DNA of 59,083 bases from Candidatus Wolframiiraptor allenii (GTDB taxonomy: Archaea; Thermoproteota; Nitrososphaeria_A; Caldarchaeales; Wolframiiraptoraceae), in the NCBI GenBank assembly GCA_023539495.1, contig JAKCEV010000001.1, forward strand, positions 1 through 59,083, written 5' to 3'. The first letter of the stretch is position 1, and each line of letters begins with the position of its first letter. Below the pieces are notes generated by a model. That model had not been told where the DNA came from. It saw only the letters and a program-made list of their open reading frames with translations, and did no database searches. The translations under genes were made by a program, and so were the position numbers. Of the stretch, positions 1 through 59,083 are shown piece after piece.

Positions 1-147
1 GTCGAGCATCCTGAGGCCATTATCGACGAGCGTCCTAGCGATGACTGATGGCGGCCTGTGTCTCTCAACAGCGGCAAGCGTCGAGTCCACGTAATCCAAG
101 ACTCCAATAATGCCCGCTTCCTCGAAGGTATTCACGTAACCAGCCAT
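1..147 (-). CDS. ORF-A copy 1: small protein of a 3-copy window-internal family (N-terminal part only; the rest lies left of the window)
   Basis: Reverse-strand translation from the ATG at 147-145 gives MAGYVNTFEEAGIIGVLDYVDSTLAAVERHRPPSVIARTLVDNGLRMLD..., collinear with the ORFs at 14395-14649 and 54025-54291. An in-frame TGA (160-162) just upstream fixes the start. Confidence 0.55.
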   Translation of the reverse strand, partial: MAGYVNTFEEAGIIGVLDYVDSTLAAVERHRPPSVIARTLVDNGLRMLD

Positions 148-231: not shown

Positions 232-495
232 ATGCCGGGAAGCCGGCTAAAAATAGGATTCCATGGCAATGAGAAGACCCCGGAGCAGATACTCATAATA
301 CCGTTCAGGGAGGGGGAAGATGTTAAGTATTTCGTGGTGAGGGGTGTGAGAGAAGGCGATAGGCGCGTGACGAGATGCGACATGGTCAGGATAACGGGGC
401 TGGGATCGGCTGTCGAATATCTCGGGGATGTATGGGAGGAGATGTGGGACGCCATGCTATTCAAGCTGAAGGCCGCCGAGACAAGCATGCCATAA
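232..495 (+). CDS. ORF-B copy 1: 87-aa protein of the same repeat cassette (the only intact copy)
   Basis: ORF track 232..495. The C-terminal two thirds are conserved at protein level with copy 2 (KYFVVRGVREGD.RVTRCDM.RI...EYLG.VWEE.WDAMLFKL.AAE..MP), with mostly conservative or synonymous differences. Confidence 0.55.
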   Translation: MPGSRLKIGFHGNEKTPEQILIIPFREGEDVKYFVVRGVREGDRRVTRCDMVRITGLGSAVEYLGDVWEEMWDAMLFKLKAAETSMP

Positions 496-13256: not shown

Positions 13257-13376
13257 GGTCGAGGAGGGTGCGGATATGGGCCCGGTGAGACTTAAACCCA
13301 TGACGTCATGCCCAACAGTGGATAAGAATCCTCCCTTGTAAGATCCCCTAGCCCCTTCACGGAGGCCTCCTCGACC
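13257..13376. repeat. 11-bp perfect inverted repeat (ggtcgaggagg / cctcctcgacc) enclosing 98 nt with internal palindromes
   Basis: Arms at 13257-13267 and 13366-13376. Internal atgacgtcat (13300-13309) and ggaggcctcc (13361-13370). Lies between the convergent HIT and LAGLIDADG gene ends. Confidence 0.8.
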
Positions 13377-13386
13377 ATAATGATGG

Positions 13387-14394
13387 TCACATAAACGCGG
13401 TGAACTGGTAAGTATGCGTGTAAAAGGGGGAAAGGGGGTGGGTTAGTATTCTAGTCTTCCAGTTCTTCTCAAGTAGTTTACCAGGCGTTCTTGTTTCCTC
13501 CTTATGGTGAATCCTATATACTTGTAGAACCCCCATATTACAGCTCCGTTTCACGTAAACATGGTACACATCACGTCGGCGAACATATTGTTTTCCTTTT
13601 ATGTGCGTTATTGATCCTCGTTGATGTAGAAGGTTCGGGCCCGTCGTTGCTATCTTAAATCTTCCAAGAAGGGACTGCACATACTTCAAGAGGCGATAAT
13701 CGCTGTTCACTACATAAATTGACCCATCTTTCAATACGCCCCCTTCCGCGTCGAAGAACCCCCTAAGGAATGCGGCGCTGCACTTATCACAGTGTTCAAT
13801 GTATTTCCTCAACCTCTCGAGGTCAACCGGCTTTTTCAACAGTTCGTAGAGTGTCTTCGACTTAACCTGGGTGTAATAGTAGTAGCGACCTGTCGATCTC
13901 AGGATTTTCGGTTTGTGCGGTGGCCTGTTCAGTACTCTGCCTATCCTTATAGCAAATTCCTCGACAAACTCTTTATCCTTCGCCCTGAGGTGTATTCTGG
14001 CTTGCTTGTAGCCTTTGCGGTCGCGCCTTGTAGTACCAACATATCCATCGCCGCAAACCACGCCGATCACATATGCTAAATCCTCGGAAGGCTCCAACAG
14101 TTCCAGCGAAGGTATCCTCCCTTTGTTATACGGACTATGCAGTCCTCGTACCCATCCACTTATCTGGCACCTGGATAGCTCAATCCCGTATTCCTGTTTG
14201 ATTACATGTCTGATCTTATTGTTCGACAGTCCTAGTTGGCGAAGAGCCATAACCCTATCATACAGCTTTATCCTAAGCTCTCTGGGCCGATATTCTCCCC
14301 TCCTCCTACCATCACCTACAATTTGGGCCTCCTCTCTCCGGACCGAATCCGATCCACTTTGCCGCGGCCCACTCTTCGTCTGCGTCATCTTCAT
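13387..14394 (-). CDS. Free-standing double-motif LAGLIDADG endonuclease with N-terminal HTH; C-terminus apparently frameshifted
   Basis: Motif 1 LAYVIGVVCGDGYV, motif 2 AAFLRGFFDAEGGV. N-terminal HTH-like LRQLGLSNNKIRHVIKQEYGIELSRCQISGWV. After the C5 run at 13530-13534 another frame reads GFYKYIGFTIRRKQERLVNYLRRTGRLEY* (stop 13443-13445), which looks like the genuine LAGLIDADG tail. Confidence 0.75.
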   Translation of the reverse strand: MKMTQTKSGPRQSGSDSVRREEAQIVGDGRRRGEYRPRELRIKLYDRVMALRQLGLSNNKIRHVIKQEYGIELSRCQISGWVRGLHSPYNKGRIPSLELLEPSEDLAYVIGVVCGDGYVGTTRRDRKGYKQARIHLRAKDKEFVEEFAIRIGRVLNRPPHKPKILRSTGRYYYYTQVKSKTLYELLKKPVDLERLRKYIEHCDKCSAAFLRGFFDAEGGVLKDGSIYVVNSDYRLLKYVQSLLGRFKIATTGPNLLHQRGSITHIKGKQYVRRRDVYHVYVKRSCNMGVLQVYRIHHKEETRTPGKLLEKNWKTRILTHPLSPFYTHTYQFTAFM

Positions 14395-14649
14395 TCACCC
14401 CCCGAGGACTTCATAGAGTAAGCCATGAAGCTCCTCGCAGACGTGGTTCATTACCTTGCCAACGTATCCGCGGTATTCTCTGGCGAAGCCGTCGAGCATG
14501 CTAAGGTCATCATGGATAAGCGTCCTAGCGATGACTGATGGCAGCCTATACCTCTCAACAATGGCAAGCGTCGAGTTAATGTTATCCAAGACCCCGACGA
14601 ACTCCCTCATGAGGCCGGCCTCCTCGAAGACATCCACGTAATCAGCCAT
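14395..14649 (-). CDS. ORF-A copy 2 (84 aa), stop codon abutting the LAGLIDADG start (TGAATG)
   Basis: MADYVDVFEEAGLMREFVGVLDNINSTLAIVERYRLPSVIARTLIHDDLSMLDGFAREYRGYVGKVMNHVCEELHGLLYEVLGG. GGAGG Shine-Dalgarno-like element directly 5' of the ATG at 14649. Paralogous to copies 1 and 3. Confidence 0.6.
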   Translation of the reverse strand: MADYVDVFEEAGLMREFVGVLDNINSTLAIVERYRLPSVIARTLIHDDLSMLDGFAREYRGYVGKVMNHVCEELHGLLYEVLGG

Positions 14650-14696
14650 ACCTCCACAATACCATCCCAATACATGCCTGCCCTTATTTCTTGGGG
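14641..14696. repeat. Left arm of a long inverted repeat (ORF-A promoter, leader and ATGGCTGAT)
   Basis: The reverse complement gggtccccaagaaataagggcaggcatgtattgggatggtattgtggaggtatggctgat matches 15046-15109 with a few mismatches and small gaps. Confidence 0.8.
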
Positions 14697-14725
14697 ACCC
14701 GCCTGAAAATGGAAAGATTATGATG

Positions 14726-14990
14726 ATGCCGGGAAGCCGGCTAAAAATAGGATTCCATGGCGATAGAGGGACCTCGGAGCAGATACTTATAATACCTTAT
14801 CAAGGATGGAGAGGATGTCAAGTATTTCGTGGTCAGGGGCGTGAGGGAGGGTGATGGGCGCGTGACGAGATGCGACATGATCAGGATAATGGGCTGGGAT
14901 CAGTTGATAGAATATCTCGGGGAAGTCTGGGAGGAGCTATGGGACGCAATGCTATTCAAGCTGAGGGCCGCCGAGGCGGGCATGCCGTAA
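14726..14990 (+). pseudogene. ORF-B copy 2, carrying a 1-nt insertion relative to copy 1
   Basis: 265 nt from ATG to TAA against 264 nt in copy 1. The N-terminus MPGSRLKIGFHGDRGTSEQILIIP runs into a stop. After the shift the frame reads KYFVVRGVREGDGRVTRCDMIRIMGWDQLIEYLGEVWEELWDAMLFKLRAAEAGMP*. Confidence 0.5.
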
Positions 14991-15045
14991 GGCTGAAGCC
15001 AATATCACAATACCCCATATTTTTATTTCCCATTTTTCGGGCGCT

Positions 15046-15109
15046 CCCCAAGAAAATAAGGGGAGGTGTGTATTGGGATGGTATTATGGGGGCGAGGGGT
15101 ATGGCTGAT
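15046..15109. repeat. Right arm of the inverted repeat, downstream of ORF-B copy 2
   Basis: ccccaagaaaataaggggaggtgtgtattgggatggtattatgggggcgaggggtatggctgat. It is followed by a 37-codon ORF (15101-15214, MADAGNEAVKK...) unrelated to ORF-A beyond the third codon. Confidence 0.8.
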
Positions 15110-15182
15110 GCGGGGAATGAGGCTGTGAAGAAGGCAAGTGGCGGGAGTGCCCGAAGTGCGGGGCCACGACATAGTATCTATG

Positions 15183-16226
15183 TTATTGGGAGAAGCCTAA
15201 AGCCTTCATTTTAACCACGTCATAGTGCGGCGATGACGGGTTGGCGATCAATGAGACCCTGCTCGGCCTATCCTCGGCGAGATACTCGTATCCTAGAGCC
15301 TCTGCAAGCTTTATCGCAAATGGCCTGATCTCGTCGAGGGAGGGCATCGCCTCTCTCTTCATCCTCTTCTGGGACTCGCCTACATGCATGTATCCCTTAC
15401 ACTCGATGAAGTCTGGCTCGGCGATCCTAATGAGCTCCGCATATTTCTCGGGATCCCGGATCGTATAACCATTAATCATGATCAGCCTAACAACCTTCAC
15501 GGATTTCTGAAACTCCCTCATAACCTTCAGACTCTCCACGAGCCTTTCCCAGCTATCCGGGATTAATGGCCTGCAGATCCTCTTATGAGCCTCGGGATCT
15601 GGGCCATAAAGGCTGATGTAGAGATTTGTTGGCTCAGCATCCTCCTCCGTAAGCTCCATGAGTCTCTCTGGGTTAGTGCCGTTCGTAACTAGAAAGGCCG
15701 TCATACCCCTACTCTTAATCAGCTTCACCATATCAGCGAGATACGGGTATATCGTCGGTTCACCGTCGAGGGAGATCGCGACGTGCTTTGGCTCCATCGC
15801 CTCATCGAAGAGCCTCTTATCGACTATCGGGTTGCCCTTAAATCCTGATAGAAGTTGCCTCTGCTCCCGAATCAGCCCGTCGAGTATGTCCTCCGGCCTA
15901 TCCCACTCGCCCCCAACACCTGTTATGCGGTTTATAGTATGATGTCTCCAGCAGAAGATGCACATCATATTGCAATACTGGAGCGCTGGGGTCATTTGTA
16001 GACACCTGTGACTCTTGATACCATACCATCCCTTGTAACAGTTCTTACCACCCCTAAGAACGCTCCTAGTCCAGTGGCATATCTTGACTGCTGAGTGTCC
16101 CCCTACGACCCTATAACCCGCCCTCCTAAGCTTCGTGAGCTCAGCCTTCGCGATCTCTACAGACTCCGCTGGCATAGATCCCAAGAACCTTGCCACCAAA
16201 TCACCAGAGTAAAACCTGCATCTCAT
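15183..16226 (-). CDS. taw1: tRNA 4-demethylwyosine synthase (radical SAM, Taw1/TYW1)
   Basis: SAVKICHWTRSVLRGGKNCYKGWYGIKSHRC plus radical-SAM cluster CNMMCIFCWRHH. The real start is possibly the internal MPAES. Confidence 0.88.
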   Translation of the reverse strand: MRCRFYSGDLVARFLGSMPAESVEIAKAELTKLRRAGYRVVGGHSAVKICHWTRSVLRGGKNCYKGWYGIKSHRCLQMTPALQYCNMMCIFCWRHHTINRITGVGGEWDRPEDILDGLIREQRQLLSGFKGNPIVDKRLFDEAMEPKHVAISLDGEPTIYPYLADMVKLIKSRGMTAFLVTNGTNPERLMELTEEDAEPTNLYISLYGPDPEAHKRICRPLIPDSWERLVESLKVMREFQKSVKVVRLIMINGYTIRDPEKYAELIRIAEPDFIECKGYMHVGESQKRMKREAMPSLDEIRPFAIKLAEALGYEYLAEDRPSRVSLIANPSSPHYDVVKMKALGFSQ

Positions 16227-16312
16227 AAACTTGACTCCCCCGCCTTAAAGAGCGAGGCTTTCAATTGTAACCTTGGAGAACCAATGCGCTGAAGAGCAAG
16301 AGCAAAAAGTAT

Positions 16313-17125
16313 ATGAGCTATAAAGATGTTGTAAGCCTCATGTCCAGCTTAAAGAGGAAGCTCAAGAACGAGGAAGTGGTTCTTGGAACATGGATAACGA
16401 TAAACCATCCGGATGTTGTTGACGCTTTGTCGGAGCTCCCGCTCGATTGGCTTGTCTTTGACATGGAGCATGCGCCGCTCGAGATATCCGACGTCGAGGT
16501 CCTGCTCATGCCCCTAAGAGGCGTGGATATCTCACCGATAATCAGGGTCCCATGGAACGACATGGTAATCATAAAGAGGGCACTTGACATAGGAGCTGAG
16601 GGGATACTCGTTCCATGGGTTAATAGCCGGGAGGAGGCTGAGAAGGCTGTCAGCTATGCATCATATCCACCAAGAGGGTTAAGGGGTGTCGGGCCGAGGA
16701 GGGCGGTGAGATATGGCCGGAGAAGCTTCCTAGATTACTATGAGAACTTCGAGAAAAATGAGCGAATACTCTTGGTCCAGATAGAGACGGGCAGGGCGCT
16801 GGAAAACCTCGAGGAGATACTCTCAACACCCGGAATAGACGTTGCATATATCGGGCCGATGGACCTATCAGTCAGCCTCGGAATACCTCTGAAATTCGGG
16901 GACCCAAGATTCCAAGAGGCCTTAAAGAAGGTTAGGGGCGTCTGCGAGAAATACGGCGTTACGCCAGGGATACATGCATTCAGCCCGGAGCAGGCTCGAG
17001 AATTCATCTCTCAGGGCTTCAGGTTTGTCGCGCTAATGTCTGATCTAGGTATCATGAGGAGAGGGCTCATGAGCACGCTTGCGATACTGGGCAGAATAAA
17101 GGAGGAGGCTGGAGCCGGATATTGA
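16313..17125 (+). CDS. HpcH/HpaI-family aldolase
   Basis: 270 aa. GTWITINHPDVVDAL...FDMEHAP...IRVPWND...PPRGLRGVG...VQIET pattern of class II 2-keto-3-deoxy acid aldolases. Confidence 0.8.
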   Translation: MSYKDVVSLMSSLKRKLKNEEVVLGTWITINHPDVVDALSELPLDWLVFDMEHAPLEISDVEVLLMPLRGVDISPIIRVPWNDMVIIKRALDIGAEGILVPWVNSREEAEKAVSYASYPPRGLRGVGPRRAVRYGRRSFLDYYENFEKNERILLVQIETGRALENLEEILSTPGIDVAYIGPMDLSVSLGIPLKFGDPRFQEALKKVRGVCEKYGVTPGIHAFSPEQAREFISQGFRFVALMSDLGIMRRGLMSTLAILGRIKEEAGAGY

Positions 17126-17140
17126 CAAACAACCCCTTTC

Positions 17141-18154
17141 CTAATCTAATTTCCCCCTCTTGAGAGTTTCGAGCAATCTCTTTTCGACCTTGACTAGGTC
17201 ACTTGATCCTAGTACCTCCTTGAGCCTATTCATCATGATCATCCCGGATAACTTTTCCTCGGCGAACTCCCTCGCGAACTCGCCGCTCCAGATCTCCTCA
17301 GCCTCGCTCTCAACAATATCCCTAATCATCTCATAGTATCTCCGTATCCTAGTTAGCTGGCCATACTGGCTTGTCCTAGAATGATGCTTCAACTGCTCTA
17401 TCAGTCCCTCTTCGGCCATGGCCTTAGCTTGCTCAGCCAGCTCGCCCGACGCATAGAGCTCCAGTATCGCGGCCTCCGGCGATGCTCCGTAAACCTTGGT
17501 AGCAACCTCAAAATACGCCATAATTGAGGCTATCAAAAGCGGAATGTAAGTATGCTCACTCAACAGATCGAGAAAAGCTTCCTCCTCAAATGATGATTTG
17601 AGGGCGATTCCGCCGGGGAGCCCTATGGCCCCGATTCCTCTCGAGATCGCTAGGGCATAATCCCACGCCTTACCAGATACATTCTGCGCGACGCCAATCA
17701 GGACAGGATATCCAAGCCCCTGCTTGTGCCTCTCGAGAATCCCCCAGGCAAACATCCGGGGAGCAACCATTATCACATCGGTATTTGCCGCTGGCTTGAT
17801 TAAGCCATACGTTATATTATAGCCACTCGCGAAGTCTAGTATGAAGAACTTCTTCTTCCTAATCTCCTCATCCATCTTGCCGTAATATACGTCCGGCGCA
17901 ACTTCATCAGGGACCAGTAGGAGGGCGGCATCAGCCCTTCTAACAGCCTCACTTATCTCATATACCTTGAACCCATCCTTCTCAGCCCTCTTCCAATACT
18001 CATCCATCCTATTACCGACTATAACCTCTAAGCCATTCTCCCTAAGGATCCTAGCCTGAACACTTCCTTGATTGCCATAACCGATGACGGCTATCGTTAA
18101 GTCCCTGAGAATACTCAAATCCCCGTCGAAAAAGAGCTCCGCCAACCCACTCAC
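17141..18154 (-). CDS. ilvC: Ketol-acid reductoisomerase-like oxidoreductase (divergent paralogue)
   Basis: Rossmann IAVIGYGNQGSVQARILRENGLEVIVG and KARI-type C-terminal knotted domain. The DLFGEQ block is replaced by DLLSEH. Confidence 0.75.
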   Translation of the reverse strand: MSGLAELFFDGDLSILRDLTIAVIGYGNQGSVQARILRENGLEVIVGNRMDEYWKRAEKDGFKVYEISEAVRRADAALLLVPDEVAPDVYYGKMDEEIRKKKFFILDFASGYNITYGLIKPAANTDVIMVAPRMFAWGILERHKQGLGYPVLIGVAQNVSGKAWDYALAISRGIGAIGLPGGIALKSSFEEEAFLDLLSEHTYIPLLIASIMAYFEVATKVYGASPEAAILELYASGELAEQAKAMAEEGLIEQLKHHSRTSQYGQLTRIRRYYEMIRDIVESEAEEIWSGEFAREFAEEKLSGMIMMNRLKEVLGSSDLVKVEKRLLETLKRGKLD

Positions 18155-18155
18155 C

Positions 18156-19163
18156 TCAGATCATCTTAACCATGCTTAACGGCCTAACATTAATGACCTC
18201 CGGATTCAAAAGGTTTTCGGGCACCTCACCCTTTAGAACCTTGACTATGCCCATAGCCGTGAGCTCAGCCATCTTATTTCTAGTATCGTGCGAAGCACTC
18301 CCGATATGAGGTGTGACGACGACATTCTCAAGCCTTAGCAGTGGGTCGTTAGGGTCTATCGGCTCCTTCTCAAAGACATCAAGCCCAGCGCCGGCGATCC
18401 ATCCCTCCTTCAAAGCCCTGAAAAGCGCCTTTTGATCAACAACCGGGCCGCGGGACGTATTCACTAAAATAGCAGTTCTCTTCATGAGCCTCAACTCCTT
18501 CTCGCCAATGAGCCCCCTAGTCTCCGGAGTCAATGGAACATGTATCGACACGTAATCTGATTCCATTAAAAGCCTCTCGAGCGGCGCATACTCCACGCCA
18601 AGCTCTTTCTCGAGAGCTTCCCTCCGAACGACGTCATAGTATAGGATCCTCATGTTGAAGCCCTTGGCCCTTCTCGCTACCGCCTGCCCAATCCTGCCAA
18701 GGCCAATTATCCCGAGAACCTTGCCATAAACATCGTGTCCTAGCATCATGGTGGGCGCGAATGGTATCTTCCACTCACCCTTCCTCACATAAGAATCCGC
18801 CTCGACAATCCTTCTAGCAACCGCTAACAGAAGCGCCCAAGTATGATCCGCCACGGTCTCAGTCAAGACCCCAGGAGTATAGACAATGTATATCCCCTTC
18901 TTCGTGGCATATTCAACATCGATATGATCTACGCCAACACTCATTGTTCCAACAACCTTGAGACTCTTAGCCCTATCTATCAGCTCCTTATCAATGGTCT
19001 CGTTCAACGTGCAATAGACCGCATTAACATCCTCGACAGCCTTGAGGAGCTCATCCCTAGCCGGTGGTGGGAGCTCATCCCTATACACGACCTCGCAGTG
19101 CTCCCTTAGTATCTTCAGCCCTATCTCCGGAATCCTTCGAGTAACATACACCTTCGGCTTCAT
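18156..19163 (-). CDS. gyaR: D-2-hydroxyacid dehydrogenase / glyoxylate reductase
   Basis: MKPKVYVTRRIPE start. NAD-binding GIIGLGRIGQAVARR. Catalytic R/E/H context (TPHIGSAS). The track's N-terminal extension overlaps the upstream gene and was trimmed to the ATG at 19163. Confidence 0.85.
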   Translation of the reverse strand: MKPKVYVTRRIPEIGLKILREHCEVVYRDELPPPARDELLKAVEDVNAVYCTLNETIDKELIDRAKSLKVVGTMSVGVDHIDVEYATKKGIYIVYTPGVLTETVADHTWALLLAVARRIVEADSYVRKGEWKIPFAPTMMLGHDVYGKVLGIIGLGRIGQAVARRAKGFNMRILYYDVVRREALEKELGVEYAPLERLLMESDYVSIHVPLTPETRGLIGEKELRLMKRTAILVNTSRGPVVDQKALFRALKEGWIAGAGLDVFEKEPIDPNDPLLRLENVVVTPHIGSASHDTRNKMAELTAMGIVKVLKGEVPENLLNPEVINVRPLSMVKMI

Positions 19164-38829: not shown

Positions 38830-38908
38830 TGGTGCGGCCGCCGGGATTTGAACCCGGGACCGCTGGCTCGGGGGGCCAGCGTCCTAGACCAGGCTAGACG
38901 ACGGCCGC
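38830..38908 (-). tRNA. tRNA-Gly (anticodon CCC), CCA encoded
   Basis: Minus strand: GCGGCCG-TC-GTCT-AGCCTGGTCTA-GGAC-G-CTGGC-CCCCCGA-GCCAG-CGGTC-CCGGG-TTCAAAT-CCCGG-CGGCCGC-ACCA. Canonical T-loop and D-loop GG. Confidence 0.8.
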
Positions 38909-52767: not shown

Positions 52768-52801
52768 CGTTCTGGGCTTTTTAGCCCTTCCTCCCTCTTT
52801 C

Positions 52802-54028
52802 TCATTGGGAGGCTTTCGGGGGGGAACGCGAGCTCCCCACATCTATCTGGCGCTGACAATCAAAAGGTTTTAAGGTTTTGGCGTTCATGCACTCCTCGTA
52901 ATAGCGCTTCACCAGATTCTTCACAGCTATCACATCTCTGTCCTCTTCTAGGCCGCATCTCTGACATTTCATCAGCCTGTGCCCATTCGGGCTTATAGCA
53001 AGCTCACCCCCGCATACCGGGCATATTTTTGAAGTGTTCCTAGGATCAACGTATTTTACGGCTTAATCTATGAAGCTTCGCCTGATACTCCAATATCCGC
53101 TGGAATCTAATGTAACTCCATCTATGTATCCTCCCATTAAGTTCCCTAGAGCCCTTATCCTCTTTATGGACGCTGAGATCCTCCATCACAATTATGGTGG
53201 CCCCAACCTCCTTAGCCTTATTGATTATCTCCTTGGCCGCCCTATTGTAGATCTTCCTGATCCTCCGCCACTCCCGTCCCCTATACTTCCCCAGCAACCT
53301 CGCCCGCAGCCCTCTGCCGCGAATCTTCGATTGTATCCGCCGGCGCTTGAGGAAATATTGCGTCCTAATGATACCCTCCTTCGTCTCAAATCTCCCGACG
53401 AAATCATTGTTTCCATATACGATGGCGTTCTCATTAACGTCGACGGCGATAACCTTGGCGTCCGCGCTCACTTCCGGCAACACAACGGCCTGACGGAAAG
53501 CAACATGCAGATAGGCAGATAGAGATTATTATCATCCTTCAACACCAGCCGCGCCTCACCCAGCTTCATGTTCTTAAACTGCTCATGATACCTCCCGTGA
53601 AGCAGTCTTAATGTAACCCATCCCCCTCCATGGACTGCTATTGAAGCCCTCCAGTTTTCAGCATCGAGTTTGAATAACTTATTGCCCAACCATATTGTCC
53701 GCCTCCCGAACACCGGCCTTTCCCTTTCACACCTTCCCAGCTTTTTCACCTCTATGAAGGACTCGTAAATGCTGGCGGCATGCCGACAAGCACATTGAAT
53801 ATACTGTGATGGCAGTGTTGGATATTTCTGTCGTAGCTCGCGATACTTCGCATGATGCAGGCTAATAAAACTGGTGACCCTATATGAATGGGCATATTCG
53901 ATGAGTTCATTCACGATCCTCTGATATTCCTCGAATATGCGGTATATCTTGGAGATCGCCGCCTCATCAACATCCGTGAGATCCACCTTAAACCTCGCGG
54001 TAAACTTTATTTCCTCAACCGGCATCAT
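52802..54028 (-). pseudogene. tnpB: IS200/IS605-family TnpB (RuvC-like RNA-guided nuclease), split into three frames
   Basis: Fragment 53468-54028 is the N-terminal OrfB region. Fragment 53046-53483 has RuvC-I IAVDVNEN and RuvC-II IVMEDL. Hand-translated fragment 52802-53059 reads VKYVDPRNTSKICPVCGG...CQRCGLEEDRDVIAVKNL (Zn ribbon plus RuvC-III). Disrupted by the 8-bp duplication at 53507-53522 and a 1-nt indel near 53060-53075. Confidence 0.85.
53507..53522. repeat. 8-bp tandem duplication GCAGATAG-GCAGATAG inside tnpB
   Basis: Removing one unit restores ...NNLYLHVAFRQAVVLPEVSADAKVIAVDVNEN..., joining fragments 1 and 2 in one frame. Confidence 0.85.
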
Positions 54029-54291
54029 CGCTCACCTCTGAAGCCCTCGCATTCCTCGAAGGTCTCATAGAGTAGGCTTCTCAGCTCCATGCATACATGG
54101 AGCATCACCCTGCCAACGTATCCGCGATACTCCCCGGCGAAGTCATCGAGCATGCTGAGGCCCTCATGGACGAGCGTCCTAACGATGACTGGCGGCGGCC
54201 TGTATCTCTCGGCGACGGCCAGCGTTGAGTCCACGTAATCCAAGACTCCAATAATGCCCGCCTCCTCGAGGGCATCCACGTAACCATCCAT
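54025..54291 (-). CDS. ORF-A copy 3 (88 aa), overlapping the tnpB start by ATGA
   Basis: MDGYVDALEEAGIIGVLDYVDSTLAVAERYRPPPVIVRTLVHEGLSMLDDFAGEYRGYVGRVMLHVCMELRSLLYETFEECEGFRGER. Start chosen by homology with copies 1 and 2. Confidence 0.55.
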   Translation of the reverse strand: MDGYVDALEEAGIIGVLDYVDSTLAVAERYRPPPVIVRTLVHEGLSMLDDFAGEYRGYVGRVMLHVCMELRSLLYETFEECEGFRGER

Positions 54292-54508
54292 GCCTCCACA
54301 ACACCATCCCAATACATGCCTGCCCTTATTTCTTGGGGACCTGCCTGAAAGTGGAAGACTATTATGATCATGCCGAGATGCCGGGAGGCTGGCTAAACAT
54401 AGGATTCCATGGTAATAGAGGAACCTCAGAGCAGACACTCATAATACCGTCAGGGAGGGGGATGATGTCAGGCATTTCGTGGTCAGGGGTATATGTGAGG
54501 GCGACAGG
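54057..54508. repeat. Repeat cassette copy 3 (ORF-A, promoter region, 5' third of ORF-B); similarity ends abruptly near 54508
   Basis: Collinear with 14403-14860 and 1-370. After ...gagggcgacagg the sequence diverges into the hairpin at 54518-54551. Confidence 0.8.
54378..54508 (+). pseudogene. ORF-B copy 3 remnant (frameshifted and truncated)
   Basis: MPGGWLNIGFHGNRGTSEQTLIIPSGRG, then out of frame relative to copy 1. Homologous DNA continues (DDVRHFVVRGICEGDR in another frame) and stops at about 54508. Confidence 0.4.
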
Positions 54509-54517
54509 CAAAAGTCT

Positions 54518-54975: not shown

Positions 54976-55829
54976 GCTTTGGCCACAATGTAGCCGGAGA
55001 TCACGATAAGCGCTCCGCCTAGGATGTCAATCGGCCCTAGGAGCTGCTCTAGGAAGACCGCACCCATTATCGTCGCGCTTAGGGGCTCTAGGTAAGTTAG
55101 GACAACTGCCTTATGCGCCTCCACCATCGCGAGGCCATAGAAGTATAGTGTCACAGCTGAGCAAGTGTTCATGCCGGAGAGTATTAACAAGAGGATCCAT
55201 TCCGATGTTGAGAGGCTCGGTGCCATGGGCCGGGATATGACCGCTAAGAAGATCGCCGCGAACACATATGAGTAGAACGCCGTGGTGAGGCTTGACTGCC
55301 CCTCCCTAAGCTTCTTCGATACGATTATGAAGCCGGCGTAGCTCAGACCTGCAAGAAGCCCGTAGATTATCCCCAAAATGTCTCCGGAGACACCTCGAAT
55401 CAGCTCCTCATGGGAGATCAAACATATGCCGAGGATCGACATTAACAGGGCCACGACTGATGTTTCCCTAATCCTTTCCTTCAGTATTACAGGAGATAAT
55501 ATTGCTGTGAAGACCGGGCCGAGGTAATTTAGGAGGACTGCCTCAGCTATCGGAATGAGTTTCATTGAGGCGAAGAGGAACGCCCAGCCAAGGGATAGGA
55601 GGAGGCCGTTTAGGATTAGGGGCTTCCAGCAGGACGTGATGCGCGCGAGATCATTCACTCTGAAGATCACCATGAAGGGGAGGAGGATTAGCGAGGCGAG
55701 GAAGACCCTGAAGAAGGCGATCGTGAATGCATCGAGGCTGATCATATTCACGATCACGCCATTTAATCCCCAGAGGACCGCTGCCGACGATATTGAGAGT
55801 ATCCCGAGAGGCCGTGTGCTCTTCCTCAT
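54972..55829 (-). CDS. EamA/DMT-family transporter
   Basis: Ten predicted TM segments in two EamA repeats. Start trimmed to MRKSTRPLGIL (55829). Confidence 0.8.
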   Translation of the reverse strand: MRKSTRPLGILSISSAAVLWGLNGVIVNMISLDAFTIAFFRVFLASLILLPFMVIFRVNDLARITSCWKPLILNGLLLSLGWAFLFASMKLIPIAEAVLLNYLGPVFTAILSPVILKERIRETSVVALLMSILGICLISHEELIRGVSGDILGIIYGLLAGLSYAGFIIVSKKLREGQSSLTTAFYSYVFAAIFLAVISRPMAPSLSTSEWILLLILSGMNTCSAVTLYFYGLAMVEAHKAVVLTYLEPLSATIMGAVFLEQLLGPIDILGGALIVISGYIVAKA

Positions 55830-58996: not shown

Positions 58997-59083
58997 TAAT
59001 ATCTGACGACCTCCTCTCTACGCAGGATGGGGACGTTTGGGCTACATCCCTCCTCCCTAGGAGGTTTAGCCCTTGGCCGGGTC

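What the first reader, a model, noticed from the sequence alone, without database searches (positions are those of the whole stretch)
14395..15109. Three-copy divergent two-gene cassette (ORF-A/ORF-B) whose ORF-A is translationally coupled to interchangeable DNA nucleases
What is repeated: a cassette of two divergently transcribed small ORFs sharing a ~75-bp promoter region occurs three times (1-570, 14403-15045, 54057-54508). Nucleotide similarity is obvious by eye, including the intergenic DNA (catgcctgcccttatttcttgggg...ctgaaaatggaaagatta).

Evidence that both are genes: ORF-A (~85 aa, no HUH/Tyr or other motif I recognise) and ORF-B (87 aa) differ between copies mainly by conservative or synonymous changes. 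That argues both are real genes under selection.

Nuclease linkage: homology between copies stops exactly at the end of ORF-A, and a different nuclease gene starts within 0-4 nt. In copy 2 the TGA abuts the ATG of an HTH-LAGLIDADG endonuclease (13387-14394). In copy 3 an ATGA overlap leads into an IS605-type tnpB (52802-54028).

Interpretation: a conserved small-protein pair recurrently fused in operon with unrelated DNA-cleaving enzymes is not an arrangement I know from described IS, toxin-antitoxin or defence families. It could be a new mobile-element backbone, a nuclease accessory or regulator pair, or a shared homing target.
Basis: partly seen in the sequence, partly recalled or inferred. 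Interest (0 to 1): 0.82.

Follow-up and report, generated by a model that had tools for sequence, protein, structure and literature searches.

The report
Shared small-gene head on swappable nuclease elements
A small conserved gene (ORF-A), usually with a divergent partner (ORF-B), forms the front end of a family of mobile elements in hot-spring archaea; the DNA-cutting enzyme behind it has been swapped among TnpB, a LAGLIDADG homing endonuclease and a probable (weakly matching) IS110-like recombinase.

Summary
The window has three copies of the ORF-A/ORF-B cassette, 78-85% identical. ORF-A's stop abuts a LAGLIDADG gene in copy 2 and overlaps tnpB by ATGA in copy 3.

Public metagenomes hold at least 250 related loci, and I examined 80. 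In 72 of 79 cases the gene after ORF-A starts between -4 and +3 nt of its stop. That gene is:
- type-1 TnpB with an omega-RNA tail in 59 cases;
- type-2 TnpB in 8;
- LAGLIDADG in 9;
- a divergent, probably IS110-like protein (weak matches only) in 3. This protein is also the partner in the two most distant ORF-A branches checked.

ORF-A is under purifying selection (dN/dS 0.27). ORF-B is often broken (24 of 69 intact) and is absent from one whole clade.

Presence/absence comparisons show the cassette and its enzyme together at sites that are empty elsewhere, including two sites in this window. The cassette is therefore the head module of a modular selfish element, not a plain duplication.

All window copies show decay: tnpB is in three frames, the LAGLIDADG gene has a 3' frameshift, and two ORF-B copies are frameshifted.

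ORF-A and ORF-B match no known family or fold, so their function is only inferred.

The parts
14395..14649 (-). ORF-A, copy 2 (84 aa, acidic, predicted three-helix bundle). It is the first cistron of the operon.
   Evidence: ORF and start codon. Family of 214 proteins, mostly about 85 aa with a conserved LLYEVLGGE* end. dN/dS 0.27 against 0.80 in a shifted-frame control, and 85 of 92 copies intact. AlphaFold2 pLDDT 75. pI 4.7.
14650..14719 (.). Shared divergent promoter region. The most conserved 10-mer is GCCCTTATTT at 14680-14689, read here as a single TATA-like box. It lies 34 nt from the ORF-A ATG and 32-38 nt from the ORF-B ATG.
   Evidence: Column conservation over 51 copies is 0.98 at 14680-14689. 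The intergenic DNA has fewer substitutions than the ORFs. The promoter role is inferred from spacing, not measured.
14720..14990 (+). ORF-B, copy 2. A 1-nt insertion near 14799 shifts the frame, splitting it into ORFs 14720-14854 and 14829-14990.
   Evidence: Family of 274 proteins. dN/dS 0.34 among intact copies, but only 24 of 69 are intact. AlphaFold2 predicts four strands plus two helices, pLDDT 68.
15027..15109 (.). Inverted second copy of the promoter region, including the first codons of ORF-A (ATGGCTGAT). It faces outward from ORF-B.
   Evidence: Self-BLASTN: 14641-14715 against 15109-15027, 77% identity, E 5e-10. The same conserved ~70 nt follows the ORF-B stop in most loci. What follows it is variable small ORFs or host genes.
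15103..15214 (+). Remnant of a third small gene (ORF-C of the zinc-ribbon kind), decayed in this copy.
   Evidence: The intact 83-aa form in L023 carries CxxC...CxxC. The window copy reads through in the wrong frame.
13387..14394 (-). LAGLIDADG endonuclease gene, second cistron of copy 2. A 1-nt insertion about 140 nt before the stop alters its last ~47 residues.
   Evidence: Pfam LAGLIDADG_3 E 1.9e-14, with the second domain matched only partly. Weak match to I-DmoI, E 0.0045. The frameshift is seen against L008 and L072.
13290..13386 (-). 3' tail of the LAGLIDADG-bearing element. It contains the palindrome CATGACGTCATG and ends in ...GGTTTAAG.
   Evidence: The same tail and the same end occur at a second insertion site in L004, L005 and L034. 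It is absent from L094 and L072, where homology stops at the LAGLIDADG stop codon.
1..147 (-). ORF-A, copy 1 (the N-terminal 49 codons; the rest lies beyond the contig start).
   Evidence: In the near-identical contig L081 it is followed by a type-1 tnpB, and both genes are frameshifted there.
232..495 (+). ORF-B, copy 1. This is the only intact copy in the window (87 aa).
   Evidence: P0121 is 98% identical.
54025..54291 (-). ORF-A, copy 3 (88 aa, with the C-terminal extension ...EECEGFRGER typical of type-2 TnpB partners).
54378..54509 (+). ORF-B, copy 3. It is frameshifted and homology ends at about 54509.
52802..54028 (-). Type-2 tnpB pseudogene, second cistron of copy 3. It overlaps ORF-A by ATGA and reads in three frames.
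   Evidence: NCBIfam guided_TnpB hits on the fragments. tblastn with the intact 385-aa homologue from L022 gives three pieces. The gene is absent from strain L007.
59005..59083 (-). 3' end of a fourth element: the type-1 tnpB / omega-RNA scaffold, cut by the contig end.
   Evidence: It matches the tnpB 3' region of about 45 loci. The scaffold structure has 7 pairs with compensatory changes.

Best explanation
The region 14395-15109 is the head module of one decaying copy of a family of modular selfish elements. The family is abundant in hot-spring Aigarchaeota (Caldarchaeales), going by the names of the few annotated MAG proteins.

**Anatomy.**
- One conserved TATA-like box sits midway between two divergent genes.
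- ORF-A is the first cistron of a two-gene operon.
- The second cistron starts at or over the ORF-A stop (TGA|ATG, ATGA or GTGA), so it is probably translated by termination-reinitiation.
- That second cistron is the element's DNA-targeting enzyme.

**History (inferred).**
- The enzyme slot has been refilled repeatedly by recombination at the stop/start junction.
- The occupants are a divergent, probably IS110-like recombinase (weak matches only), two clades of RNA-guided TnpB, and a LAGLIDADG homing endonuclease.
- The IS110-like protein is the partner of the two most distant ORF-A branches checked, so it is probably ancestral.
- Type-1 TnpB elements carry their own 3' omega-RNA.

**Shown here.**
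- The architecture and its recurrence.
- Purifying selection on ORF-A.
- Co-mobility of the head and its enzyme.
- Mixing of enzyme types across the ORF-A tree.

**Inferred only.**
- ORF-A is not catalytic. It is small, acidic and helical, and in some variants is fused to a predicted two-helix membrane domain.
- It is proposed to act as an enzyme-agnostic accessory: it delivers and doses translation of whichever DNA-breaking enzyme follows, and modulates that enzyme's consequences for the cell.
- ORF-B and the variable ORF-C are dispensable cargo.
For: **Repeat and junctions in the window.**

**Gene families.**
- ORF-A: 214 homologues of about 85 aa with a conserved C-terminus; dN/dS 0.27 against a control of 0.80; 85 of 92 intact.
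- ORF-B: 274 homologues.

**Linkage to enzymes.**
- 250 metagenome loci were detected and 80 fetched.
- Start of the downstream gene relative to the ORF-A stop: -4 nt in 53, +3 in 17, 0 or +1 in 2, farther in 7.
- Downstream families: TnpB 67, LAGLIDADG 9, third family 3. TnpB splits into type 1 (59) and type 2 (8).
- Third family: 13 of 31 members hit Pfam DEDD_Tnp_IS110, and 12 of 31 hit NCBIfam 'IS110 family RNA-guided transposase' (best E 3.5e-5).
- Distant ORF-A relatives P0381 and P0395 are followed by this same family (hmmsearch E 1e-97 and 1e-133).
- Further long contigs show ORF-A followed by LAGLIDADG or TnpB.

**Co-mobility.**
- L010 and L007 carry ORF-B', ORF-A, tnpB and the omega-RNA end inside the EamA-like gene, where the window has an empty site at 55511.
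- L004, L005 and L034 carry an extra ORF-C', ORF-B, ORF-A, LAGLIDADG unit at window position 16230/16238, which is empty in the window.
- L082 and L084 share 1301 bp at 100% identity (ORF-C, ORF-B, ORF-A and the tnpB start) in two different contexts.
- L063 and L058 share a 1.33-kb ORF-A plus IS110-like unit in different contexts.

**Swapping of enzymes.**
- Enzyme types are intermixed on the ORF-A tree.
- One ORF-B-less clade carries all four enzyme types.
- Type-1 TnpB and LAGLIDADG share the junction GGTGA(A/G)TGAAGATGA, which encodes their first codons M-K-M.
- L021 has the window's LAGLIDADG gene and right flank but a different ORF-A type.

**Omega-RNA.** A conserved scaffold ends in GGAGGTC and is followed by locus-specific DNA. 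Seven base pairs show compensatory changes.
Against: - No function can be assigned to ORF-A or ORF-B. They have no family or fold match, so the accessory role is inference only.
- No transposase that could move the TnpB or LAGLIDADG versions was found. The only search was a crude tblastn with a recalled IS608 TnpA, restricted to the fetched DNA.
- The left ends of inserted units are not fixed. They fall inside ORF-B in L010 and inside ORF-C in L004. The L010 junction shows a 9-bp duplication plus 28 extra nt, which does not fit IS200/IS605 rules.
- ORF-A is lost at about the same rate per nucleotide as tnpB: 92% against 64% intact, which matches their lengths. Nothing therefore shows ORF-A to be more indispensable than the enzyme.
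- The ORF-A tree is a neighbour-joining tree on 240 nt with no support values.
- The taxon is inferred from a few MAG protein names only. GTDB species representatives gave no hit.
Confidence: 0.6

Rival explanations
1. Shared homing target (landing pad). ORF-A belongs to a multi-copy cellular or element gene family. Several independent site-specific selfish genes (TnpB insertion sequences, a free-standing LAGLIDADG homing endonuclease gene, an IS110-like element) each home to the conserved 3' end of ORF-A, where they gain its promoter and translational coupling.
For: - All the enzyme classes are of the sequence-specific homing or insertion kind (established knowledge of TnpB, LAGLIDADG and IS110).
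- The junction falls at the same nucleotide in 72 of 79 loci.
- Enzyme types are intermixed on the ORF-A tree.
- At one genomic locus the ORF-A type differs while the LAGLIDADG gene and flank stay the same (L021 against the window).
- In L094, homology to the window ends exactly at the LAGLIDADG stop codon.
Against: - No ORF-A without a downstream enzyme gene was seen among the loci that could be assessed.
- The polymorphic or relocated units always include ORF-A.
- LAGLIDADG and type-1 TnpB share their first three codons. That points to replacement within an existing operon rather than independent insertion.
- The type-1 tnpB start leaves no room for an IS200/IS605 left end between ORF-A and tnpB.
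Confidence: 0.2
2. ORF-A and ORF-B form an addiction (toxin-antitoxin-like) or defence pair. The pair stabilises whatever DNA it sits on, and nucleases are linked to it only because both ride on the same mobile DNA.
For: - Both are small proteins of about 85 aa, tightly linked and present in many copies.
- Both are under purifying selection when intact.
- Some ORF-A variants carry a two-helix membrane-like N-terminus, which gives a very weak PADLOC '2TM effector' hit at E 0.04.
Against: - The genes are divergent, not co-transcribed.
- ORF-B is broken in about two thirds of copies and absent from a whole clade, while ORF-A persists.
- There is no match to any toxin-antitoxin or defence family.
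- The model does not explain the strict stop/start coupling of ORF-A to an enzyme.
Confidence: 0.1
3. ORF-A, with or without ORF-B, is itself a new kind of transposase or recombination protein that moves the unit. The nucleases are only homing or maintenance cargo.
For: - No canonical transposase was found in the TnpB- and LAGLIDADG-bearing units, yet they occupy new sites.
- ORF-B's model gave very weak fold resemblances to ssDNA-binding Whirly/PC4/Pur-alpha folds (E 1.7-4).
Against: - ORF-A is an 84-aa acidic three-helix bundle with no catalytic motif.
- The fold hits are not significant.
- The probably ancestral partner is itself IS110-like on weak profile matches, and IS110 proteins are recombinases.
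- ORF-B is dispensable.
Confidence: 0.05
4. Plain segmental duplications or decayed pseudogene debris with no recurrent organisation.
For: All copies in the window show decay: tnpB in three frames, a 3' frameshift in the LAGLIDADG gene, and two frameshifted ORF-B copies.
Against: - There are 250 related loci in metagenomes with the same architecture.
- ORF-A and ORF-B are under purifying selection.
- Units occur in many different genomic contexts.
Confidence: 0.02

Closest known systems
IS200/IS605-family tnpB-only elements (IS1341-like) with omega-RNA
   Same: - The commonest version carries a TnpB with OrfB_IS605 and Cas12f1-like TNB domains.
- Its conserved, structured 3' RNA scaffold ends at the element boundary and is followed by locus-specific DNA, as expected for a guide.
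- The elements are multi-copy, and many copies are decayed.
   Different: - A conserved small gene (ORF-A) with its own promoter precedes tnpB and is translationally coupled to it.
- One or two further small genes lie upstream.
- No Y1 TnpA was seen in the DNA searched.
- Left ends are variable, and one insertion shows a 9-bp duplication.
- The tnpB slot can be occupied by unrelated enzymes.
Free-standing LAGLIDADG homing endonuclease genes (for example I-DmoI-like archaeal enzymes)
   Same: The enzyme is a two-domain LAGLIDADG protein (Pfam LAGLIDADG_3; weak I-DmoI match). It is a selfish, sequence-specific DNA cutter.
   Different: - It is not inside an intron or intein.
- It sits as the second cistron behind ORF-A, in exactly the place tnpB occupies in sister elements, and shares tnpB's first three codons.
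- It has an N-terminal extension of about 100 aa.
- It was seen at only two or three genomic sites.
IS110-family (bridge-RNA-guided) insertion sequences
   Same: - The third enzyme family gives repeated weak hits to DEDD_Tnp_IS110 and to NCBIfam IS110 transposase models.
- The compact 1.33-kb unit has a conserved 147-nt 3' tail with hairpin potential.
   Different: - All matches are below the curated cut-offs.
- No Transposase_20 (Ser) domain was detected.
- A translationally linked ORF-A lies upstream, which described IS110 elements lack as far as I know.
- A bridge RNA was not demonstrated.
IS3/IS1-type OrfA-OrfB organisation
   Same: A small upstream ORF overlaps the catalytic ORF, so synthesis of the enzyme depends on translation of the small ORF.
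   Different: - The overlap is a stop/start ATGA (reinitiation), not a programmed -1 frameshift that makes a fusion protein.
- ORF-A is acidic and has no detectable HTH.
- The downstream enzymes are not DDE transposases.
Intronless homing and module shuffling of homing endonuclease genes in phages
   Same: Unrelated nuclease genes occupy the same slot next to a conserved gene in different relatives, and the breakpoints fall at gene boundaries.
   Different: Here the slot lies inside a chromosomal multi-copy element of archaea. The swaps cross the divide between protein-guided (LAGLIDADG) and RNA-guided (TnpB, IS110-like) enzymes.

Membership tests
IS200/IS605 (TnpB-bearing) elements | TnpB protein with a RuvC-like domain and a zinc-finger/TNB domain | tested here: met
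   - L012 (type 1) hits OrfB_IS605 at E 3.9e-26 and TNB at E 7.9e-14.
- L022 (type 2) hits TNB at E 1.2e-18.
- The window copy at 52802-54028 hits guided_TnpB only in fragments, so it is a pseudogene.
IS200/IS605 (TnpB-bearing) elements | 3' omega-RNA scaffold overlapping the tnpB end, with the guide formed by the flanking DNA | tested here: met
   - The conserved scaffold ends in ...GGGGAGGAGGTC and is followed by unrelated DNA in 27 distinct flanks.
- RNAalifold predicts 35 pairs, 7 with compensatory changes.
- This applies to type-1 elements only. Expression of the RNA was not tested.
IS200/IS605 (TnpB-bearing) elements | Y1 (HUH) TnpA transposase in the element or in the genome | tested here: inconclusive
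   tblastn with a recalled IS608 TnpA found nothing in the window or 85 loci. The search was of low sensitivity and covered no whole genome.
IS200/IS605 (TnpB-bearing) elements | Insertion 3' of a short target motif, with no target duplication and defined left and right ends | tested here: not met
   - The right end is precise.
- The left junction lies inside ORF-B in L010 and L007, with TGCTGTGAA on both sides and 28 extra nt.
- L082 and L084 share a left end but have no common flanking motif.
- Only a few junctions were available.
LAGLIDADG homing endonucleases | One or two LAGLIDADG catalytic domains | tested here: met
   Pfam LAGLIDADG_3 at E 1.9e-14 with two stretches in the window protein, and a full second domain in L008. 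The window copy's second domain is disrupted by a frameshift.
LAGLIDADG homing endonucleases | Location in a self-splicing intron or intein, or free-standing next to its cognate target, with homing into empty alleles | not testable with these tools
   No intron or intein context is visible: the gene is the second cistron after ORF-A. Cleavage specificity is unknown. An extra copy occurs at a second site nearby.
IS110 family | N-terminal DEDD (RuvC-like) domain | tested here: inconclusive
   - 13 of 31 members hit PF01548 (best E 0.004).
- 12 of 31 hit NF033542 (best E 3.5e-5).
- All scores are below the curated cut-offs.
- The KSDExDA motif resembles the IS110 KTDxxDA motif, but that is from memory and only a lead.
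IS110 family | C-terminal Tnp domain with catalytic Ser, and a bridge RNA in a non-coding end | not tested
   - No Transposase_20 hit was listed.
- A conserved 147-nt 3' tail exists.
- A strongly folding 326-nt stretch lies upstream of a solo copy in L081 (z -8.4).
- Neither was analysed for bridge-RNA loops.
Type II toxin-antitoxin pairs | Two small co-transcribed genes, one matching a toxin fold and one a DNA-binding antitoxin | tested here: not met
   ORF-A and ORF-B are divergent, not co-transcribed. They have no toxin-antitoxin or defence family hits. ORF-B is usually broken.
IS3/IS1-type OrfA/OrfB | Programmed -1 frameshift fusing OrfA to a DDE OrfB; OrfA has an HTH | tested here: not met
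   The junction is a stop/start overlap (ATGA or GTGA) or a 3-nt gap. No HTH or DDE hits were found.

The most novel reading that the evidence does not exclude
ORF-A is an enzyme-agnostic helper for break-driven spread of selfish DNA. For example, it could be a DNA mimic, a factor that channels break repair, or a toxicity damper. It would work equally well with an RNA-guided nuclease (TnpB), an RNA-guided recombinase (IS110-like) or a protein-guided homing endonuclease (LAGLIDADG). These elements would then be a natural experiment showing that the three enzyme classes are functionally interchangeable modules on one backbone, with left-truncated copies made by break-induced copying rather than by a transposase.
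Probability: 0.2. Interest if true: 0.85.

Novelty: new variant of a known kind. Interest (0 to 1): 0.7.

Why it matters
- TnpB has recently been recast as a homing endonuclease that keeps its transposon in place. Finding TnpB, a classical LAGLIDADG homing endonuclease and a probable IS110-like recombinase in the same slot of one backbone would be direct natural evidence that these enzymes can substitute for one another.
- The elements also point to a small protein (ORF-A) that all versions keep. It is a testable candidate for a general regulator or helper of programmable nucleases from thermophiles.
- The family may help explain how tnpB-only elements multiply in archaea that show no TnpA.
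- It also supplies new thermophilic TnpB/omega-RNA pairs and a divergent, probably IS110-like protein family that no curated model covers.

Tried and rejected
**Searches that found nothing.**
- GTDB species genomes: two scans for ORF-A relatives gave no hit. The host lineage is either not represented or masked there.
- Rfam on the window found only tRNA-Gly. Rfam on L081 found nothing relevant.
- Foldseek of the ORF-A and ORF-B AlphaFold2 models against PDB gave no match better than E 1.5. The Whirly/PC4-like hits for ORF-B are too weak to use.
- PDB sequence and profile searches with the third enzyme family gave nothing.
- PADLOC and PHROGs gave nothing for ORF-A, ORF-B, ORF-C or the long ORF-A form.
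- The literature search found no paper describing this arrangement.
- The exact-protein look-up of the window's HIT gene found only strains that already carry the LAGLIDADG element, so no empty site for copy 2 was recovered.

**Ideas tested and dropped.**
- I looked for a conserved C-rich 'true right end' downstream of the omega-RNA guide, prompted by L010. It is not supported across 27 flanks.
- I suspected a tRNA gene after the LAGLIDADG gene in L094. ARAGORN finds none.
- I considered whether ORF-A outlives its enzyme, which would be a sign of domestication. The intact fractions (92% against 64%) are what equal decay per nucleotide predicts, so there is no evidence either way.
Full report
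**1. What is in the window**

Self-BLASTN confirms three copies of the repeat:
- 1-530 matches 14491-15037 at 81% identity.
- 2-364 matches 54146-54509 at 85%.
- 14411-14839 matches 54065-54489 at 78%.

The window is a whole 59,083-bp contig. It starts inside copy 1, and it ends (59005-59083) inside the 3' end of a further tnpB. The assembly therefore broke in repeats on both sides.

The anatomy of copy 2 is as follows.
- ORF-A runs from the ATG at 14649 to the TGA at 14395-14397 on the minus strand (84 aa).
- Its stop abuts the ATG (14392-14394) of a 335-aa LAGLIDADG_3 protein.
- ORF-B starts at 14720/14726 on the plus strand, but a 1-nt insertion near 14799 shifts the frame.

In copy 3, ORF-A (54025-54291) overlaps tnpB by ATGA. 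That tnpB is a pseudogene read in three frames. Its ORF-B is also frameshifted, and homology ends at about 54509.

Only copy 1 has an intact ORF-B (232-495).

The LAGLIDADG gene has a 1-nt insertion that puts its last ~47 codons out of frame relative to relatives. Every copy in this window therefore shows decay.

**2. Are ORF-A and ORF-B genes?**

ORF-A evidence:
- It has 214 homologues, nearly all about 85 aa, with a conserved end ...LLYEVLGGE*.
- A profile search of 1.84 billion representative proteins finds only 57 clusters, all small proteins. The family is therefore narrow.
- Across 74 distinct intact copies, dN/dS is 0.27, against 0.80 when the same alignment is read one base out of frame. 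85 of 92 copies are intact.

ORF-B evidence:
- It has 274 homologues.
- dN/dS is 0.34 among intact copies, but only 24 of 69 copies are intact.

Neither protein matches Pfam, NCBIfam, PADLOC or PHROGs.

Structure predictions give little:
- AlphaFold2 predicts a three-helix bundle for ORF-A (pLDDT 75) and four strands plus two helices for ORF-B (pLDDT 68).
- Foldseek against PDB gives nothing better than E 1.5.
- ORF-A is acidic, with pI 4.5-4.7.

**3. The shared control region**

Over 51 copies, the most conserved ten bases of the whole cassette are GCCCTTATTT at 14680-14689. They lie 34 nt from the ORF-A ATG and 32-38 nt from the ORF-B ATG.

I read this as one TATA-like box serving two divergent, nearly leaderless transcripts. 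That reading is inferred from spacing and is not measured.

An inverted second copy of this region follows ORF-B (15027-15109). In most loci the same ~70 nt follows the ORF-B stop. What lies beyond it varies:
- unrelated small ORFs, such as an 80-aa kind and an 83-aa zinc-ribbon kind;
- directly adjacent host genes.

**4. What follows ORF-A elsewhere**

GTDB species genomes gave no relatives. JGI metagenomes gave 250 loci, and 80 were fetched.

For the 79 ORF-A genes with DNA downstream, the next gene starts as follows:

| Offset from the ORF-A stop | Loci |
|---|---|
| -4 nt (ATGA or GTGA) | 53 |
| +3 nt | 17 |
| 0 or +1 nt | 2 |
| farther (mostly visibly decayed) | 7 |

The downstream proteins fall into three families, and TnpB splits into two types:

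| Enzyme | Loci | Notes |
|---|---|---|
| Type-1 TnpB | 59 | about 430 aa; OrfB_IS605 + TNB domains |
| Type-2 TnpB | 8 | 385 aa; the window's kind |
| LAGLIDADG | 9 | |
| Third family | 3 | about 292 aa; 130 homologues |

Members of the third family repeatedly give weak hits to IS110 models:
- 13 of 31 hit Pfam DEDD_Tnp_IS110.
- 12 of 31 hit NCBIfam 'IS110 family RNA-guided transposase', best E 3.5e-5.
- All these scores are below the curated cut-offs.

Two distant ORF-A relatives (P0381, P0395) are also followed by this third family, at a +3 gap or an 8-nt overlap, with hmmsearch E 1e-97 and 1e-133. ORF-A plus the IS110-like protein is therefore probably the oldest pairing. That version has no ORF-B.

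Three further long contigs show ORF-A followed by LAGLIDADG or TnpB. No ORF-A without an enzyme gene downstream was seen.

**5. Evidence that the units move as a whole**

(a) L010 and L007 match the window at 99-100% on both sides of position 55511. Between those flanks they carry a truncated ORF-B, ORF-A, a type-1 tnpB and the omega-RNA end, inside a gene that is intact in the window.

(b) L004, L005 and L034 carry, besides the window's copy 2, a second unit made of a truncated ORF-C, ORF-B, ORF-A and LAGLIDADG. It sits at window 16230/16238, which is empty in the window. It ends with the same 97-nt tail (...CATGACGTCATGGRTTTAAG) as copy 2.

(c) L082 and L084 share 1301 bp at 100% identity, covering ORF-C, ORF-B, ORF-A and the tnpB start, in two different genomic contexts.

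(d) L063 and L058 share a 1.33-kb unit of ORF-A plus the IS110-like gene between unrelated flanks.

Type-1 elements end in a conserved structured scaffold...GGATGTAGCCCAAACCTCCCCA-loop-GGGGAGGAGGTC. Unrelated DNA follows it in 27 distinct flanks, and seven base pairs show compensatory changes. This is what an omega-RNA whose guide is the flank looks like.

**6. Evidence for swapping of the enzyme module**

- On a neighbour-joining tree of ORF-A DNA, LAGLIDADG-linked copies sit in at least five places and type-2-linked copies in at least seven. The tree uses 240 nt and has no support values.
- One clade of longer ORF-A forms lacks ORF-B and carries all four enzyme types.
- In three loci of that clade, the ORF-A domain is the C-terminal part of a ~196-aa ORF with two hydrophobic helices.
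- Type-1 tnpB and the LAGLIDADG gene share the junction GGTGA(A/G)TGAAGATGA, which encodes their first codons M-K-M. This suggests the LAGLIDADG gene replaced a type-1 tnpB just inside its start.
- L021 has the window's LAGLIDADG gene and right flank but a different ORF-A type.
- In L094 (95% identical to window 13390-18652), homology stops at the LAGLIDADG stop codon.

**7. What remains unexplained**

- No transposase for the TnpB and LAGLIDADG versions was found. The search was crude and limited to fetched DNA.
- Right ends are precise, but left ends are not. They fall inside ORF-B in L010 and inside ORF-C in L004.
- L010 shows TGCTGTGAA on both sides, plus 28 extra nt where the window has CGA.
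- One possibility, untested, is break-induced copying:
  - it starts from the right flank at a site that resembles the donor's guide;
  - it ends by microhomology.
- ORF-A's intact fraction (92%) is what its length predicts from tnpB's (29 of 45 intact). ORF-B decays much faster.

**8. Conclusion**

The finding is real. It extends to a large family of modular elements, judged to be in Aigarchaeota from the few named MAG proteins.

The best reading is a conserved head consisting of a promoter and ORF-A, often with ORF-B and ORF-C. ORF-A is translationally coupled to an exchangeable DNA-targeting enzyme.

The architecture, recurrence, selection on ORF-A and co-mobility are shown. The role of ORF-A as an enzyme-agnostic accessory is inferred.

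I found no description of this arrangement in the searchable literature.

Noticed in passing
window 59005-59083 (minus strand): The contig ends inside the 3' end of another type-1 tnpB / omega-RNA scaffold, and it starts inside ORF-A of copy 1. The assembly therefore broke in this repeat family at both ends.
   Followed up: yes
window 13387-13530 (minus strand): The LAGLIDADG gene has a 1-nt insertion (aatatGggggttc) relative to L008 and L072. The last ~47 residues are out of frame and the second LAGLIDADG domain is cut short. The identical strain L091 has the same change.
   Followed up: yes
window 55504-55522; L010 1-130 and 2000-2060: This is the empty site of an element insertion inside an EamA-like transporter gene. 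The occupied allele has TGCTGTGAA on both sides, plus 28 unexplained nt (GCGGCCTACATCACTCCCCCTTTTCCCC) in place of CGA. The DNA after the omega-RNA end matches the target for 17 nt.
   Followed up: partly
window 52794-54052 against L007 400-420: A related strain lacks the tnpB pseudogene and the last codons of ORF-A. The deletion joins at a short GCCCT...CCTC microhomology.
   Followed up: partly
L081 5315-5640 (minus strand): A GC-rich 326-nt stretch lies directly upstream of a solo IS110-like gene that has no ORF-A. It folds far better than shuffles (z -8.4) and has no Rfam match. It is a candidate structured RNA, possibly bridge-RNA-like.
   Followed up: partly
L063 3584-3730; L058 6600-6745; L081 4250-4440: A conserved ~147-nt tail follows the IS110-like gene (...GCCGGNCCAGCTACGATAGCYCGTCGGCCAGCCCCACCCCC...) and has hairpin potential. 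It was not analysed for covariation.
   Followed up: no
L025/L035, L038/L040/L049, L017, L036, L037 (DNA after ORF-B): The outward-facing second promoter copy at the ORF-B side of the element lies directly upstream of host genes that, judged only by eye from their N-terminal sequences, resemble ELP3/radical-SAM, histone deacetylase, HypC, a kinase and PorA; no family search was run on them. The elements may therefore drive neighbouring genes.
   Followed up: partly
L018 5656-6249; L029 242-832; L051 58-555: In some elements the ORF-A domain is the C-terminal half of a ~196-aa ORF. Its N-terminal half has two hydrophobic, membrane-like helices that are conserved at the protein level between loci.
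   Followed up: partly
P0204, P0206, P0146 and similar proteins: Some ORF-B homologues carry a conserved ~55-aa N-terminal extension (MALFGLLEREEDREAM...), giving 134-149 aa. Their genomic context was not examined.
   Followed up: no
window 38830-38908 (minus strand): tRNA-Gly (CCC) is the only Rfam or ARAGORN hit in the window. It is unrelated to the finding.
   Followed up: yes
L004 700-5700: In one strain, two LAGLIDADG-bearing units in the same orientation (86% identical to each other) flank the TYW1 (wyosine) gene. The window has only the downstream one.
   Followed up: yes
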